Shown piece after piece: positions 51,842 to 58,133 of a DNA stretch of 64,000 nucleotides; the stretch's first letter is position 1, and each line of letters starts with the position of its first letter. Both the position numbers and the translations under genes were made by a program. The stretch lies in the NCBI RefSeq assembly GCF_009914755.1, contig NC_060929.1; one strand, given 5' to 3'. Source of the DNA: the human T2T-CHM13v2.0 reference genome, Homo sapiens. The notes beneath the pieces were generated by a model. That model was not told the origin of the DNA and ran no database searches. It saw only the letters and a list, made by a program, of their open reading frames with translations.

Positions 51842-51899
51842 CTCCAAGTTGTTGGTCACATCCTGCTTGTCCTCATTCTGGTATTTTGGTTTTCCTCTG
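51842..51899 (+). pseudogene. Putative SPINK pseudogene, signal-peptide exon (LQVVGHILLVLILVFWFSS, phase-1 donor)
   Basis: Hydrophobic 19-mer ending in SS followed by G|GTAAGC, the same architecture as SPINK7 exon 1. No ATG at the equivalent position, but an in-frame ATG at 51764. Confidence 0.55.
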
Positions 51900-52258
51900 G
51901 TAAGCATCTGGTTATTAATGAGCACTCCCTCTCTGTCATCCATAAAGTCTACGACCATACTTAGGGTAAAAAATGGTAAGTGCTAAATCACATCACAAAA
52001 TTGTCTGATGGAAAATGGAAAATAGTTCTTAAATTGACTACGAATTTTAAAAACTTCTTGTCTGCAAATAATTTTAAAGAGCAAATTTTGATCCTTTTCA
52101 CTGTTTTCTTCTTTTTTAGATATTCTTAGTGAGACCAAACATTAGTTTGAGTCTGTATATGATTTATCAAGTTTTGTAAAAGTTGTTTTAAAGCTATTGC
52201 ATTCATTTAAATTTTTAAATCTTGTTTTCAAACAGAATTTTATCATTTTAAAACATTT

Positions 52259-54485
52259 ATTTGTATTTTTTTAAATTTTATTATTATTATACTTTAAGTT
52301 TTAGGGTACATGTGCACAATGTGCAGGTTAGCTACATATGTATACATGTGGCATGCTGGTGTGCTGCACCCATTAACTCGTCATTTAGCATTAGGTATAT
52401 CTCCTAACGCTATCCCTCCCCGCTCCCCCCACCCCACAACAGTCCCCAGAGTGTGATGTTCCCCTTCCTGTGTCCATGTGTCCTCATTGTTCAATTCCCA
52501 CCTATGAGTGACAATATGCGGTGTTTGGTTTTTTGTTCTTGCAATAGTTTACTGAGAATGATGATTTCCAATTTCATCCACGTCCCTACAAAGGACATGA
52601 ACTCATCATTTTTTATGGCTGCATAGTATTCCATGGTGTATATGTGCCACATTTTCTTAATCCAGTCTATCGTTGTTGGACATTTGGGTTGGTTCCAAGT
52701 CTTTGCTATTGTGAATAATGCCGCAATAAACATACGTGTGCATGTGTCTTTATAGCAACATGATTTATAGTCCTTTGGGTATATACCCAGTAATGGGATG
52801 GCTGGGTCAAATGGGATTTCTAGTTCTAGATCCCTGAGGAATCACCACACTGACTTCCACAATGGTTGAACTAGTTTACAGTCCCACCAACAGTGTAAAA
52901 GTGTTCCTATTTCTCCACATCCTCTCCAGCACCTGTTGTTTCCTGACTTTTTAATGATTGCCATTCTAACTGGTGTGAGATGGCATCTCATTGTGGTTTT
53001 GATTTGCATTTCTCTGATGGCCAGTGATGGTGAGCATTTTTTCATGTGTTTTTGGCTGCATAAATGTCTTCTTTTGAGAAGTGTCTGTTCATGTCCTTCG
53101 CCCACTTTTTGATGGGGTTGTTTTTTTCTTGTAAATTTGTTTGAGTTCATTGTAGATTCTGGATATTAGCCCTTTGTCAGATGAGTAGGTTGCAAAAATT
53201 TTCTCCCATTTTGTAGGTTTCCTGTTCACTCTGATGGTAGTTTCTTTTGCTGTGCAGAGGCTCTTTAGTTTAATTAGCTCCCATTTGTCAATTTTGGCTT
53301 TTGTTGCCATTGCTTTTGGTGTTTTAGACATGAAGTTCTTGCCCATGCCTATGTCCTGAATGGTAATGCCTAGGTTTTCTTCTAGGGTTTTTATGGTTTT
53401 AGGTCTAACATGTAAGTCTTTAATCCATCTTGAATTAATTTTTGTATAAGGTGTAAGGAAGGGATCCAGTTTCAGCTTTCTACATATGGCTAGCCAGTTT
53501 TCCCAGCACCATTTATTAAATAGGAAATCCTTTCCCCATTGCTTGTTTTTGTCGGGTTTTTCAAAGATCAGATAGTTGTAGATATGTGGCGTTATTTCTG
53601 AGGGCTGTGTTCTGTTCCATTGATCTATATCTCTGATTTGGTACCAGTACCATGCTTTTTTGGTTACTGTAGCCTTGTAGTATAGTTTGAAGTCAGGTAG
53701 CATGATGCCTCCAGCTTTGTTCTTTTGGCTTAGGATTGACTTGGTGATGCGGGCTCTTTTGTGGTTCCATATGAACTTTAAAGTAGTTTTTTCCAATTCT
53801 GTGAAGAAAGTCATTGGTAGCTTGATGGGGATGGCATTGAATCTGTAAATTACCTTGGGCAGTATGGCCATTTTCACGATATTGATTCTTCCTACCCATG
53901 AGCATGGAATGTTCTTCCATTTCTTTGTATCCTCTTTTATTTCATTGAGCAGTGGTTTGTAGTTCTCCTTGAAGAGGTCCTTCACATCCCTTGTAAGTTG
54001 GATTCCTAGGTATTTTATTCTCTTTGAAGCAATTGTGAATGGGAGTTCACTCATGATTTGGCTCTCTGTTTGTCTATTATTGGTGTGTAAGAATGCTTGT
54101 GATTTTTGTACATTGATTTTGTATCCTGAGACTTTGCTGAAGTTGCGTATCAGCTTAAGGAGATTTTGGGCTGAGACAATGGGGTTTCTTAGATATACAA
54201 TCATGTCATCTGCAAACAGGGACAATTTGACTTCCTCTTTTCCTAATGGAATGCCCTTTATTTCCTTCTCCTGCCTAATTGCCCTGGCCAGAACTTCCAA
54301 CACTACGTTGAATAGGAGTGGTGAGAGAAGGCATCCCTGTCTTGCCAGTTTTCAAAGGGAATACTTCCAGTTTTTGCCCATTCAGTATGATATTGGCTGT
54401 GGGTTTATCATAGATAGCTCTTATTATTTTGAGATACATCCCATCAGTACCTAATTTATTGAGAGTTTTTAGCATGAAGGGTTGT
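52259..54485 (-). mobile_element. L1PA3/4 3' segment (ORF2 RT/C-terminus, 3'UTR, tail) of a 5'-inverted insertion
   Basis: 404-aa ORF2 fragment at 53089-54303 with LFADD, T-rich tail at the left, TSD attttaaaacattt at 52245-52258. Confidence 0.97.
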
Positions 54486-55936
54486 GGGGGCTGGAGCCAA
54501 GATGGCTGAATAGGAACAGCTCCGGTCTACAGCTCCCAGCGTGAGCGACGCAGAAGATGGGTGATTTCTGCATTTCCATCTGAGGTACCGGGTTCATCTC
54601 ACTAGGGAGTGCCAGACAGTGGGCGCAGGACAGTAGGTGCAGGGCACCGTGCGCGAGCCGAAGCACGGAGAGGCATTGCCTCGCTCAGGAAGCGCAAGGG
54701 GTCAGGGAGTTCCCTTTCCTAGTCAAAGAAAGGGGTGACAGATGGCACCTGGAAAATCGGGTCACTCCCACCTGAATACTGCGCTTTTCCGATGGGCTTA
54801 AAAAACGGCGCACCACGAGATAATATCTCGCAGCTGGCTCGGAGGGTCCTACGGCCACGGAGTCTCGCTGATTGCTAGCACAGCAGTCTGAGATCAAACT
54901 GCAAGGCGGCAGCGAGGCTGGGGGAGGGGCGCCCGCCATTGCCCAGGCTTGCTTAGGTAAACAAAGCAGCTGGGAAGCTCTAACTGGGTGGAGCCCACCA
55001 CAGCTCAAGGAGGCCTGCCTGCCTCTGTAGGCTCCACCTCTGGGGGCAGGGCACAGACAAACAAAAAGACAGCAGTAACCTCTGCAGACTTAAACGTCCC
55101 TGTCTGACAGCTTTGAAGAGAGCAGTGGTTCCCCCAGCACGCAGCTGGAGATCTGAGAACGGGCAGACTGCCTCCTCAAGTGGGTCCCTGACCCCTGACC
55201 CCAGAGCAGCCTAACTGGGAGGTACCCCCCAGTAGGGACAGACTGACACCTCACATGGCCGGGTACTCCTCTGAGACAAAACTTCCAGAGGAATGATCAG
55301 ACAGCAGCATTCGCGGTTCACGTGATCATTCGCGGTTCACGTGATCATTCGCGGTTCACGAAAATCTGCTGTTCTGCAGCCACCGCTGCTGGTACCCAAG
55401 CCAACAGGGTCTGGAGTGGACCTCTAGCAAACTCCAACAGACCTGCAGCTGAAGGTCCTGTCTGTTAGAAGGAAAACTAACAAACAGAAAGGACATCCAC
55501 ACCAAAAACCCATCTGTACATCACCATCATCAAAGACCAAAAGTAGATAAAACCACAAAGATGGGGAAAAAACAGAGCAGAAAAACTGGAAACTTTAAAA
55601 AGCTGAGCGCTTCTCCTCCTCCAAAGGAACGCAGCTCTTCACCAGCAATGGAATAAAGCTGGATGGAGAATGACTTTGACGAGTTGAGAGAAGAAGGCTT
55701 CAGACAATCAAACTACTCCGAGCTACAGGAGGAAATTCAAACCAAAGGCAAAGAAGTTGAAAACTTTGAAAAAAATTTAGACGAATGTATAACTAGAATA
55801 ACCAATACAGAGAAGTGCTTAAAGGAGCTGATGGAGCTGAAAGCCAAGGCTCGAGAACTACATGAAGAATGCAAAAGCCTCAGGAGCCGATGCGATCAAC
55901 TGGAAGAAAGGGTATCAGTGATGGAAGATGAAATGA
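54486..55936 (+). mobile_element. Inverted 5' segment of the same L1 (complete 5'UTR plus ORF1 start)
   Basis: Starts gggggctggagccaagatgg. ORF1 ATG at 55561 with in-frame TAA at 55654. Right TSD at 55937-55950 followed by taa. Confidence 0.97.
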
Positions 55937-56695: not shown

Positions 56696-56858
56696 GTAAA
56701 TTGTAATAGATATATTGATATGACACAGGTATACTCTGTAATAGATACATTGATCATAACACAAGTATACTCTGACACTGGGAGCTCATCTTTACCCCTG
56801 TGTGTGGTACACATAGAAAAACTTATGTCAATCCCTGCCAACTGTACATGAAGATCAG
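56696..56858 (+). pseudogene. Putative SPINK pseudogene, Kazal exon
   Basis: ttgcag|GTA AAT TGT AAT AGA TAT (VNCNRY) ... TPVCGTHRKTYVNPCQLYMKI AG|GTAAAG. Disrupted by a tandem duplication. Confidence 0.85.
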
Positions 56859-58098
56859 GTAAAGATATCAATGGAACAATGATATAGAATGTGCACAAAA
56901 TATACGTCTTTACTTTAATAATTCCTCACTGTCAGGAATGGAAGAGAGCCAGTCAACAGCCTCATTTTATGGATGGAAACACTGAGCTCCAAAAGCTGAA
57001 AATGCTTCATTGCTTATGTGGAAGTCCAAGAGAAGAACCCAGGTCTGCTTAGTCCCAATCAATTCAGGGACCAAATACTATTTCCAGAGTTTTATCCACT
57101 ATATCTTATGATACCTGGAAATCAAATTCCTTCTACTATGATATGACCTAGTACGTATATCTATAAAGAACTTTATAGTTTACAAAACACTTTCATAGCC
57201 CAGTTGTAGGGCTGTAAGTGGCAGACGGGTCTACTGGCTCAGGGTCTAAATAACGTTTGTTCTGCAGACTTACATAAGAAAGCTAAGGAAACATCTAGCT
57301 TCATAGGAGACCAGGGCAGGCTTAGTTCTGCAATCTATATGACATCCAAAGTAGACACCAGACTGTTGATAATGCTGACCTTTTTCTTCCAGCATTTATC
57401 AAAACTCACGACCTTAAAAGTATCCCCAATCTTTCTGAAATTGAAGTCTAGATTTGGTCTACAATGGATACATTCCCAGAATCCTTTTAATATTTATAAA
57501 TGAATTTAAAAATAGTTATTGCTGTTCAAATTTTAAAACCCGCCTATAAGCAAAATATAGAAGATACAATTATGGAATACAGAACAGAACATGCATATTT
57601 TTAATGTATGAAATATAAAAGTAAAAATAGAGGTGAAAAATCGCTAGACAAAAATGCTGATTGAGGGAAGTGTATGGAGACAGATGAACTACTTATTGGG
57701 TTATGAGATACTGTCTAAAGATGATGACATAGAAATAGTGACTAAAGTACATTACTTTAGGTTACAAAGTTAACAAGCAGAATTTTAAAAAGTCATGATA
57801 TGCCTATCAAAAACTGGGATGAATGAAAAGGAAATGTAAATTAATACTTTTTTCCTCCATAGGTGGGAGTCAACAAATAATTTTAGCTTGTAAGGCAATA
57901 GATGTATATTATTAAGAATTATGATGGCAATAATCTAAAAACAGAAATGGTTCAAATGAGTTCCCACTGAAGTGTGATGCTGATGATAAAAGACTGGTTT
58001 TTCATTATAAACTGTTTAATGTCAATGGAATTTATAAGTATTTCTTACAATGACATATATATTAACTTTATTAACTTTCTTTCCTTCTTTATTCTTAG

Positions 58099-58133
58099 GA
58101 AGAGTAAATCATTCCCACATGGGAAGCTGCTAA
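58099..58133 (+). pseudogene. Putative SPINK pseudogene, terminal exon ((G)RVNHSHMGSC*)
   Basis: Strong pyrimidine tract plus cttag|. Aligns to SPINK7 GRVQFLHDGSC*, including GGA AGY TGC TAA. Confidence 0.8.

What the first reader, a model, noticed from the sequence alone, without database searches (positions are those of the whole stretch)
51842..58133. Hidden third SPINK/Kazal gene, decayed and split by an L1, immediately downstream of SPINK7
Seen: three exon-like pieces in the right order and strand. (a) 51842-51899 reads LQVVGHILLVLILVFWFSS+G|GTAAGC, with a phase-1 donor like SPINK7 MKITGGLLLLCTVVYFCSSS. (b) 56696-56858 reads VNCNRY...TPVCGTHRKTYVNPCQLYMKI. Removing one 35-nt duplicated copy leaves 128 nt (phase 0 to 2), the same length as SPINK13 exon 3. 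(c) 58098-58133 reads GRVNHSHMGSC*, against SPINK7 GRVQFLHDGSC*. Lesions: no ATG at the equivalent site, a TGA near the Cys2 position, Cys5 as TAC, a frameshifting duplication, and about 10 nt missing from the start of the last exon. The ORF track gives no Kazal call here. Inference: an ancient cluster paralogue inactivated in the lineage, which I do not recall being annotated.
Basis: partly seen in the sequence, partly recalled or inferred. Interest (0 to 1): 0.9.

Follow-up and report, generated by a model that had tools for sequence, protein, structure and literature searches.

The report
Decayed Kazal pseudogene beside SPINK7
Between the human SPINK7 and SPINK9 genes lies the wreck of a third Kazal-type protease-inhibitor gene, which still has its introns but is broken in at least six places, so it is an ordinary dead gene copy that the supplied gene table does not list.

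Summary

- **Kazal exon, 56696-56858.** It scores above Pfam's curated cut-off for Kazal_1 (26.1 bits against 21) and Kazal_2. In a six-frame scan of the window it is one of only three significant Kazal fragments. The other two are SPINK7 and SPINK13.
- **Last exon and signal-peptide exon.** Each is one of exactly three sites in the window that pass filters based on SPINK7 and SPINK13.

Lesions:
- no ATG at the usual place
- exon 2 not found
- a 35/36-nt tandem duplication that shifts the frame
- an in-frame TGA
- Cys2 replaced by Trp (TGG)
- Cys5 replaced by Tyr (TAC)
- a net 11-nt shortfall in the last exon

L1 sequence (52198-55978) lies in the intron, not in coding sequence. There is no DNA-level similarity to SPINK7 or SPINK13 except marginally in the last exon, so this is an old paralogue.

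An unnamed related record (P0061) shares the duplication, the Trp and the Tyr. Its exon part is no better conserved than the adjoining intron, so the gene died before that split.

Verdict: a real unprocessed pseudogene and a new member of a known kind. Its orthology, for example to rodent Spink10, could not be tested. Interest is modest.

The parts
51842..51899 (+). Relic of the signal-peptide exon (exon 1). It has a hydrophobic core and ends in phase 1 at G|gtaagc. No ATG lies at the usual distance. An in-frame ATG at 51764-51766 opens a 45-codon frame that runs to the donor.
   Evidence: With a filter loose enough to accept the SPINK7 and SPINK13 signal exons, 3 of 226 GTRAG sites on both strands pass, and the relic is one of them. 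tblastn with SPINK7 alone gives only E 3.8. The DNA-level alignment is not significant.
52198..55978 (.). L1-derived sequence inside the intron, in two head-to-head blocks. One is the 3' part of ORF2 on the minus strand (about 52198-54486). The other is the 5' UTR and start of ORF1 on the plus strand (about 54487-55978).
   Evidence: The repeat-masked spans come from the hub's table. The region is 68-88% identical to L1 copies in SPINK13 introns. Pfam finds RVT_1 on the minus strand at 53092-54351 (E 1.7e-17) and Tnp_22_trimer on the plus strand at 55657-55950 (E 3e-8). That 54487 is the first base of an L1 is my recollection of the L1 5' end, not a tool result.
56696..56858 (+). Relic of the Kazal exon (exon 3 of a SPINK7-type gene), with Cys1 to Cys5. 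The acceptor is ttgcag| and the donor is |gtaaag. It is 163 nt long, or 128 nt without duplication copy 1.
   Evidence: Pfam Kazal_1 scores 26.1-26.3 bits (cut-off 21) and Kazal_2 24.4-25.6 bits (cut-off 22.8). All but one of the 60 PDB sequences listed carry Kazal-family names, and the exception (K41043) aligns like SPINK2. My own Kazal profile gives E 2.5e-8 among 3447 fragments. Alignment A4 to SPINK7 and SPINK13 keeps Cys1, Cys3 and Cys4 in register.
56702..56772 (+). Tandem duplication inside the Kazal exon. Copy 1 is 56702-56736 (35 nt) and copy 2 is 56737-56772 (36 nt). It shifts the reading frame.
   Evidence: families D1 and D2, spacing 35-36 nt, 89-94% identity. Frames are shown.
56773..56781 (+). 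In-frame TGA (56773-56775), then CAC, then TGG (56779-56781). The TGG occupies the Cys2 column.
56845..56847 (+). TAC (Tyr) in the Cys5 column.
   Evidence: The place is counted from codon 56737 of the 40-residue reading.
58099..58133 (+). Relic of the last exon, holding Cys6 and the stop. It follows a strong acceptor (a pyrimidine run and tag|). It has 35 nt of coding sequence against 46 in SPINK7. In the spliced frame it therefore reads KSKSFPHGKLLTC..., while Cys6 and TAA lie in another frame (GRVNHSHMGSC*, from 58098).
   Evidence: The motif R[VI]...[HK].G.C.?* matches only SPINK13, SPINK7 and this site in all six frames. In the DNA alignment to SPINK7 exon 4, 5 of 500 dinucleotide shuffles reach the observed score, and the gaps sum to 11 nt.

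Best explanation
This is an unprocessed, intron-bearing pseudogene of the SPINK (Kazal-type serine peptidase inhibitor) family. It is an old tandem paralogue sitting 1.4 kb downstream of SPINK7 and upstream of the coding exons of SPINK9.

Shown:
- Three of the four exons of a SPINK7-type gene survive in the right order, on the right strand, with GT/AG signals at all four detectable splice sites.
- The Kazal exon still matches the family profile.
- The gene cannot make an inhibitor. There is no start codon at the normal place and no detectable exon 2. A 35/36-nt tandem duplication shifts the frame. There is an in-frame TGA. Two of the six disulphide cysteines are replaced (Cys2 by Trp, Cys5 by Tyr). 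A net 11-nt loss puts Cys6 and the stop codon out of frame.

Inferred:
- It arose with the other cluster members by tandem duplication long before primates.
- It was inactivated before the human lineage split from the lineage of the unnamed record P0061.
- It has drifted neutrally since then.
- Its 3' half is now carried passively inside a long alternative 5' exon of SPINK9.
For: - Sequence and frames.
- Pfam: Kazal_1 26.1 bits (cut-off 21, E 8.5e-6) and Kazal_2 24.4 bits (cut-off 22.8) on the read-through with X at the TGA. The 27-residue open stretch alone gives 26.3 and 25.6 bits.
- PDB: 59 of the 60 sequences listed by phmmer carry Kazal-family names, and the other (K41043) aligns like SPINK2.
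- Whole-window six-frame scan with a Kazal profile: 3 of 3447 fragments are significant, namely SPINK7 (1.8e-11), SPINK13 (7e-10) and the relic (2.5e-8). The next best is E 0.66.
- C-terminal motif: 3 matches in six frames, all on the plus strand, namely SPINK13, SPINK7 and the relic.
- Signal-exon filter: 3 of 226 donor-like sites pass, and they are the same three genes.
- Alignment A4: the relic has SPINK13's 40-residue spacing, with Trp in the Cys2 column, X two columns before it, and Tyr in the Cys5 column.
- Duplication.
- Last exon: aligned to SPINK7 exon 4 with gaps summing to 11 nt, and 5 of 500 shuffles reach the score.
- P0061 (145 aa, 79% identical over query residues 2-40, E 1.6e-13) is an ORF that runs on through the intron of the same locus in another genome. 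It has the duplication, the Trp and the Tyr. It is identical at 38 of 47 non-stop exon codons and at 66 of 73 intron codons. The exon is therefore not under visible constraint.
- The hub's RefSeq table lists no pseudogene at this place.
Against: - Pieces (a) and (c) are weak on their own by tblastn with SPINK7 (E 3.8 and 2.8 in the window).
- The filters were written after I had seen the relic. They were, however, set so that SPINK7 and SPINK13 pass.
- The profile was built from proteins retrieved with the relic itself as query, so it leans towards the relic. Pfam is the independent test.
- At DNA level, exons 1 and 3 are not more similar to SPINK7 or SPINK13 than shuffles are.
- Exon 2 was not found.
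- P0061 is one protein from an unnamed source whose DNA I could not fetch. Whether its four Trp residues opposite human stops are TGG, or TGA read as Trp by a gene caller, cannot be told.
- The difference between exon and intron identity rests on 16 differences and is not statistically meaningful.
- No transcript or expression data were examined.
Confidence: 0.9

Rival explanations
1. The relic is a unitary pseudogene, meaning the human remnant of a gene that is still intact in other mammals. One candidate is the counterpart of a rodent Spink gene with no known human orthologue, such as Spink10. On this reading it records a lineage-specific loss of a Kazal inhibitor, not a copy that died soon after duplication. 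This refines the best explanation and is not exclusive of it.
For: A passage in PMC10291479 (read through 'find') calls Spink12 the putative mouse orthologue of SPINK9 and says Spink10 has no known human orthologue. Rodents therefore have cluster members that humans lack. The relic keeps GT/AG signals at all four detectable splice sites, a family-level profile score and a recognisable signal peptide. This suggests it was once a working gene.
Against: No intact orthologue was found. No candidate of 71-2000 residues shared three 5-residue words with the relic. Among the best 150 hits of the exhaustive search, the only close one (P0061) is itself broken. These databases may hold few mammalian proteins. 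The positions of the mouse genes are only recalled, not tested.
Confidence: 0.4
2. The 3' half of the relic has been taken over as functional non-coding sequence. It would serve as part of an alternative 5' exon or promoter region of SPINK9, so the DNA would not be merely junk.
For: The hub's RefSeq table lists an exon of another SPINK9 transcript at 55816-58378, which contains relic exons 3 and 4. That exon ends at a good donor, caag|gtatgt, at 58378/58379.
Against: Against P0061, the exon and intron parts are about equally conserved. That looks neutral, but the data are thin. The annotated exon starts inside L1 ORF1 sequence, which is typical of opportunistic transcripts. No expression data were examined.
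Confidence: 0.1
3. The pieces belong to a gene that still codes. The lesions would be assembly errors, or would be avoided by alternative splicing.
For: GT/AG signals are present at all four detectable splice sites. An in-frame ATG at 51764-51766 opens the frame of exon 1.
Against: There are at least six independent lesions, two of them replacements of structural cysteines. The duplication, the Trp and the Tyr recur in an independent record. Joining exon 1 directly to exon 3 breaks the frame, because phase 1 meets phase 0. The hub names the assembly as T2T-CHM13.
Confidence: 0.02
4. The resemblance is due to chance in AT-rich intergenic DNA.
For: tblastn E-values for pieces (a) and (c) are above 1. 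DNA-level similarity of exons 1 and 3 is not significant.
Against: The Pfam score is above the curated cut-off. The three pieces are collinear on one strand with matching phases. The window-wide scans return no site other than the three genes.
Confidence: 0.01

Closest known systems
SPINK7 (ECRG2), window 46934-50430
   Same: It is on the same strand and is the immediate neighbour. It has the same kind of exon plan: a signal exon ending in phase 1, a Kazal exon running from phase 0 to phase 2, and a short last exon with Cys6 and the stop. It is the closer of the two neighbours in the core: by my hand count on the readings, 10 of the 20 residues from the Pro-Val-Cys-Gly motif onwards match. In the last exon 7 of 11 residues match, and the DNA alignment is marginally significant.
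   Different: SPINK7 is intact and has a 125-nt Kazal exon with 12 residues between Cys1 and Cys2. The relic has 128 nt (without the duplication) and 13 residues. There is no DNA similarity in introns, promoter, exon 1 or exon 3.
SPINK13, window 3308-20769
   Same: Its Kazal exon has the same length (128 nt) and the same Cys1-Cys2 spacing. The DNA around the acceptor and Cys1, and around the exon-1 donor, looks similar by eye. It also has L1 copies in its introns.
   Different: Residue identity is lower: 6 of the same 20 core residues by my hand count, and 3 of 11 in the last exon by my hand count on the readings. SPINK13 has an extra non-coding first exon and is intact.
SPINK2 (PDB 2jxd), the best single-domain solved relative
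   Same: The core reads much alike from Cys3 to the residues after Cys5, with an E-value of 0.0023 against PDB.
   Different: SPINK2 is a different cluster member on another chromosome (recalled, not tested). It is a family-level resemblance only.
Rodent Spink10, Spink11 and Spink12
   Same: They are extra members of the same family. Spink10 is said to have no known human orthologue (PMC10291479, passage seen).
   Different: The relationship is a lead only.

Membership tests
Kazal-type inhibitor domain (Pfam PF00050 and PF07648) | Profile score at or above the curated gathering score | tested here: met
   Kazal_1 scores 26.1-26.3 bits against a cut-off of 21. Kazal_2 scores 24.4-25.6 bits against 22.8. 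The match covers profile positions 12-30 only.
Kazal-type inhibitor domain (Pfam PF00050 and PF07648) | Six cysteines forming three disulphides (Cys1-Cys5, Cys2-Cys4, Cys3-Cys6; pairing recalled from the literature) | tested here: not met
   Cys1, Cys3 and Cys4 are present. The Cys2 column holds Trp and the Cys5 column holds Tyr. Cys6 is present but out of frame. This is as expected for a dead copy, so it is descended from the family but is not a working member.
SPINK cluster gene (SPINK7/SPINK13 type) | Signal-peptide exon ending in phase 1, and a Kazal exon of about 125-128 nt running from phase 0 to phase 2 | tested here: met
   The exon-1 donor lies after the first base of a codon. The Kazal exon is 128 nt once copy 1 of the duplication is set aside, and it starts in phase 0 with Val-Asn-Cys.
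SPINK cluster gene (SPINK7/SPINK13 type) | Short exon 2 (26-38 nt) between the signal exon and the Kazal exon | tested here: not met
   12 open AG...GT candidates of suitable length were listed in the non-L1 intron, and none resembles SPINK7 or SPINK13 exon 2. Local alignments are no better than shuffles.
SPINK cluster gene (SPINK7/SPINK13 type) | Last exon carrying Cys6 and the stop, in frame | tested here: not met
   The exon is present but is a net 11 nt shorter than in SPINK7, so Cys6 and the stop fall out of the spliced frame.
Unprocessed (duplicated) pseudogene | Homology to a gene family with intron positions kept, no poly(A) tail or intron loss, and disabling lesions | tested here: met
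   The exons are spread over 6.3 kb with splice signals. Lesions are listed.
Unprocessed (duplicated) pseudogene | No purifying selection on the former coding sequence | tested here: inconclusive
   Against P0061, 38 of 47 exon codons and 66 of 73 intron codons are identical. This is in the expected direction, but it rests on one comparison, at protein level only.
Unitary pseudogene (intact orthologue in other lineages) | An intact orthologue at the syntenic place in another mammal | not testable with these tools
   No mammalian genomes are held. Searches found no intact relative.

The most novel reading that the evidence does not exclude
The relic is the human remnant of a Kazal inhibitor gene that is still intact and expressed in other mammals. 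It could be the missing human counterpart of rodent Spink10 or a similar cluster member. On this reading primates lost a skin or epididymal kallikrein-type protease inhibitor, and the loss happened before the split from the lineage of record P0061.
Probability: 0.4. Interest if true: 0.4.

Novelty: new member of a known kind. Interest (0 to 1): 0.3.

Why it matters
The relic adds one dead member to the 5q32 SPINK cluster. That cluster's living members (SPINK5, 6, 7 and 9) control kallikrein-type proteases in skin and mucosa.

- **Annotation.** Part of an annotated alternative SPINK9 exon is a former Kazal coding exon. Variant interpretation and probe or primer design at SPINK7 and SPINK9 should take this into account.
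- **Evolution.** The relic gives a marker for dating gene gain and loss in a fast-evolving inhibitor cluster, and a candidate human counterpart for rodent-only Spink genes.

It does not change what is known about how Kazal inhibitors work.

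Tried and rejected
- **Exon 2.** I enumerated AG...GT open candidates in the non-L1 intron (12 listed) and made local alignments with SPINK7 and SPINK13 exon 2. Nothing was better than shuffles. A by-eye resemblance near 56253-56271 was not significant and was dropped.
- **Promoter and 5' UTR.** Similarity of the relic upstream region, and of 58180-58400, to SPINK7 or SPINK13 is no better than shuffles.
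- **Recent duplication of SPINK7 or SPINK13.** Sensitive blastn of both gene bodies against 51000-59000 found only L1-to-L1 matches.
- **Other Kazal relics in the window.** None was found. A weak SPINK13 tblastn hit at 13106-13225 (E 0.064) lies in masked repeat and was treated as noise.
- **Intact orthologues or more copies of the orthologous region.**
  - The search for homologous proteins with the relic, longer proteins: no candidate.
  - The same tool with P0061: only P0061 itself.
  - The search for related loci with P0061 in genome contigs: 23 pattern matches, none confirmed.
  - The search for related loci with P0061 in viral contigs: none.
- **Literature.** Eight searches were made. 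Searches included the word pseudogene, and none turned up a paper naming a SPINK pseudogene between SPINK7 and SPINK9. I read passages only of PMC13639018, PMC10291479, PMC2738690, PMC2631147 and PMC8873584. Wapenaar et al. 2007, the paper cited in PMC2738690 for new cluster members, is not held and may bear on novelty.
- **Note on PMC13639018.** It says the human genome contains SPINK10-12. The hub's table and PMC10291479 do not support that.

Full report
**1. The observation**

The three pieces are in the sequence as described.

- 51842-51899 translates to LQVVGHILLVLILVFWFSS and is followed by G|gtaagc.
- 56696-56858 follows ttgcag and precedes gtaaag. It reads VNCNRYID in one frame and TPVCGTHRKTYVNPCQLYMKI in another.
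- 58098-58133 reads GRVNHSHMGSC and then a stop.

The tandem duplication is real. Copy 1 is 56702-56736 (35 nt) and copy 2 is 56737-56772 (36 nt). Setting copy 1 aside leaves 128 nt, the length of SPINK13 exon 16618-16745. SPINK7's equivalent exon is 125 nt.

**2. Is it more than chance?**

The stretch read from copy 2 onwards, with X at the TGA, scores 26.1 bits on Pfam Kazal_1 (curated cut-off 21, E 8.5e-6) and 24.4 bits on Kazal_2 (cut-off 22.8). The 27-residue open stretch alone gives 26.3 and 25.6 bits. The SPINK7 and SPINK13 exons give 41.5 and 35.6 bits in the same call.

Against PDB sequences, 59 of the 60 sequences listed carry Kazal-family names (agrin, ovomucoid, rhodniin, SPINK2 and others). 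The remaining one, K41043, aligns like SPINK2.

I built a Kazal profile in the box from the domains of 149 fetched proteins and ran it over all 3447 six-frame fragments of at least 12 residues in the window. Three were significant: the SPINK7 exon (1.8e-11), the SPINK13 exon (7e-10) and the relic (2.5e-8). The next best was E 0.66. That profile leans towards the relic, because its members were retrieved with the relic as query. Pfam is the independent test.

Pieces (a) and (c) are weak alone by tblastn with SPINK7 (E 3.8 and 2.8). However:
- A C-terminal motif that fits the ends of SPINK7 and SPINK13 matches exactly three places in six frames: those two genes and 58101-58133.
- A signal-exon filter was set loose enough to accept SPINK7 and SPINK13. 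It asks for a GTRAG donor in phase 1, at least 8 hydrophobic residues in 11, no charge, and a small last residue. It passes 3 of 226 donor-like sites: the same two genes and 51851-51899.

Both filters were written after I had seen the relic. Even so, they return no site other than the three genes in the 64 kb read on both strands.

**3. Anatomy and lesions**

Alignment A4 puts the relic in register with SPINK13. Both have 40 residues and 13 residues between Cys1 and Cys2. Cys1, Cys3 and Cys4 are kept.

- The Cys2 column holds Trp (TGG, 56779-56781).
- The TGA (56773-56775) lies two columns upstream of it.
- The Cys5 column holds Tyr (TAC).
- The last exon begins at 58099, after a strong acceptor. 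The DNA alignment to SPINK7 exon 4 is anchored at the acceptor and at the Cys6-stop end, with internal gaps summing to 11 nt. Only 5 of 500 dinucleotide shuffles reach its score.
- In the spliced frame the exon therefore reads KSKSFPHGKLLTC..., and Cys6 with the stop falls in another frame. SPINK7's exon has an internal near-repeat, so the exact place of the deficit is ambiguous.
- No ATG lies at the usual distance from the donor. An in-frame ATG at 51764-51766 opens 45 codons.
- Exon 2 was not found. Without it, exon 1 (phase 1) cannot join exon 3 (phase 0) in frame.

GT/AG signals are present at all four detectable splice sites.

**4. The L1**

The stretch 52198-55978 is L1-derived.
- It is 68-88% identical to L1 copies in SPINK13's introns.
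- Reverse transcriptase is found on the minus strand at 53092-54351.
- The L1 ORF1 trimerisation domain is found on the plus strand at 55657-55950.

The two blocks meet head to head near 54486/54487. They lie in the intron between the signal exon and the Kazal exon, so they lengthen the intron but do not interrupt coding sequence. Whether the insertion removed exon 2 is open.

**5. Age and relatives**

Sensitive blastn of the SPINK7 and SPINK13 gene bodies against 51000-59000 finds only L1-to-L1 matches. Exons 1 and 3 are no more similar at DNA level than shuffles. The relic is therefore an old paralogue and not a recent copy. By hand count on the printed readings, its core is nearer to SPINK7 (10 of 20 residues from the Pro-Val-Cys-Gly motif onwards, reading) than to SPINK13 (6 of 20).

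The exhaustive protein search returned 853 proteins at E up to 0.001, mostly multi-Kazal proteins. One close hit stood out: P0061, 145 aa, 79% identical over query residues 2-40, E 1.6e-13. P0061 continues in step with the human frame well past the exon end, into the intron. It is therefore an ORF called on the orthologous DNA of another genome.

- It carries the tail of copy 1 followed by copy 2, the Trp in the Cys2 column and the Tyr in the Cys5 column. It has Arg where human has Cys1.
- Identity is 38 of 47 non-stop codons in the exon part and 66 of 73 in the intron part. The exon is not better kept than the intron.
- Four human stops in this frame (three TGA, one TAA) face Trp in P0061. 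Either those codons are TGG there, or the gene caller read TGA as Trp. Only the protein is held, so I cannot tell.
- Its DNA could not be fetched.

My inference is that the duplication and both cysteine losses predate the split of the two lineages.

**6. What is known**

The hub's RefSeq table lists no pseudogene at this place. It does list an exon of another SPINK9 transcript at 55816-58378, which contains relic exons 3 and 4.

Eight literature searches were made. Four of them included the word pseudogene. None turned up a paper naming a SPINK pseudogene between SPINK7 and SPINK9.

- A passage of PMC10291479 calls Spink12 the putative mouse orthologue of SPINK9 and says Spink10 has no known human orthologue. 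That makes a rodent counterpart a lead, which I could not test.
- Wapenaar et al. 2007, cited in PMC2738690 for new cluster members, is not held.
- GENCODE tracks and mammalian alignments are outside these tools.

**7. Verdict**

This is a real, unprocessed SPINK-family pseudogene with at least six independent disabling lesions, dead since before the split from the lineage of P0061. It is a new member of a known kind unless a pseudogene catalogue already lists it. Its main uses are in annotation and in reconstructing gain and loss in the cluster. Interest is 0.3.

Noticed in passing
window 58297-58378: A TATAAAA motif at 58297-58303 lies about 75 nt before the donor caag|gtatgt at 58378/58379, which ends the annotated alternative SPINK9 exon (55816-58378). 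A short non-coding first exon driven from here, like SPINK13's exon 3308-3402, seems as plausible as the 2.5-kb exon in the table. No similarity to the SPINK13 or SPINK7 promoters was found.
   Followed up: partly
window 54486/54487: Two L1 blocks meet head to head. The 3' part of ORF2 is on the minus strand to the left. To the right, on the plus strand, is what I recall as the very first bases of an L1 5' UTR. This could be one insertion with a 5' inversion or two separate events. The alternative SPINK9 exon starts (55816) inside the plus-strand ORF1 piece.
   Followed up: partly
window 51764-51899: An in-frame ATG at 51764-51766 gives a 45-codon open frame running into the relic's signal-peptide exon and its donor. 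The upstream stop is at 51725-51727. It is probably chance, but it is the only start codon available to the relic.
   Followed up: no
P0061 against window 56710-57081: A public protein set holds a 145-aa 'protein' that is an ORF read straight through an exon and intron of mammalian-looking DNA. Trp stands opposite all four human stop codons of that frame. This suggests a gene caller using a TGA=Trp code on host-derived DNA.
   Followed up: partly
window 56001-56016: A run of 16 T stands 22 nt after the end of the masked L1 block, in unmasked sequence. It may be the tail of another old retroelement inserted on the minus strand.
   Followed up: no
PMC13639018 (passages): A 2026 review states that the human genome contains SPINK10, SPINK11 and SPINK12. 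This conflicts with PMC10291479, which says Spink10 has no known human orthologue, and with the hub's gene table for this cluster.
   Followed up: no
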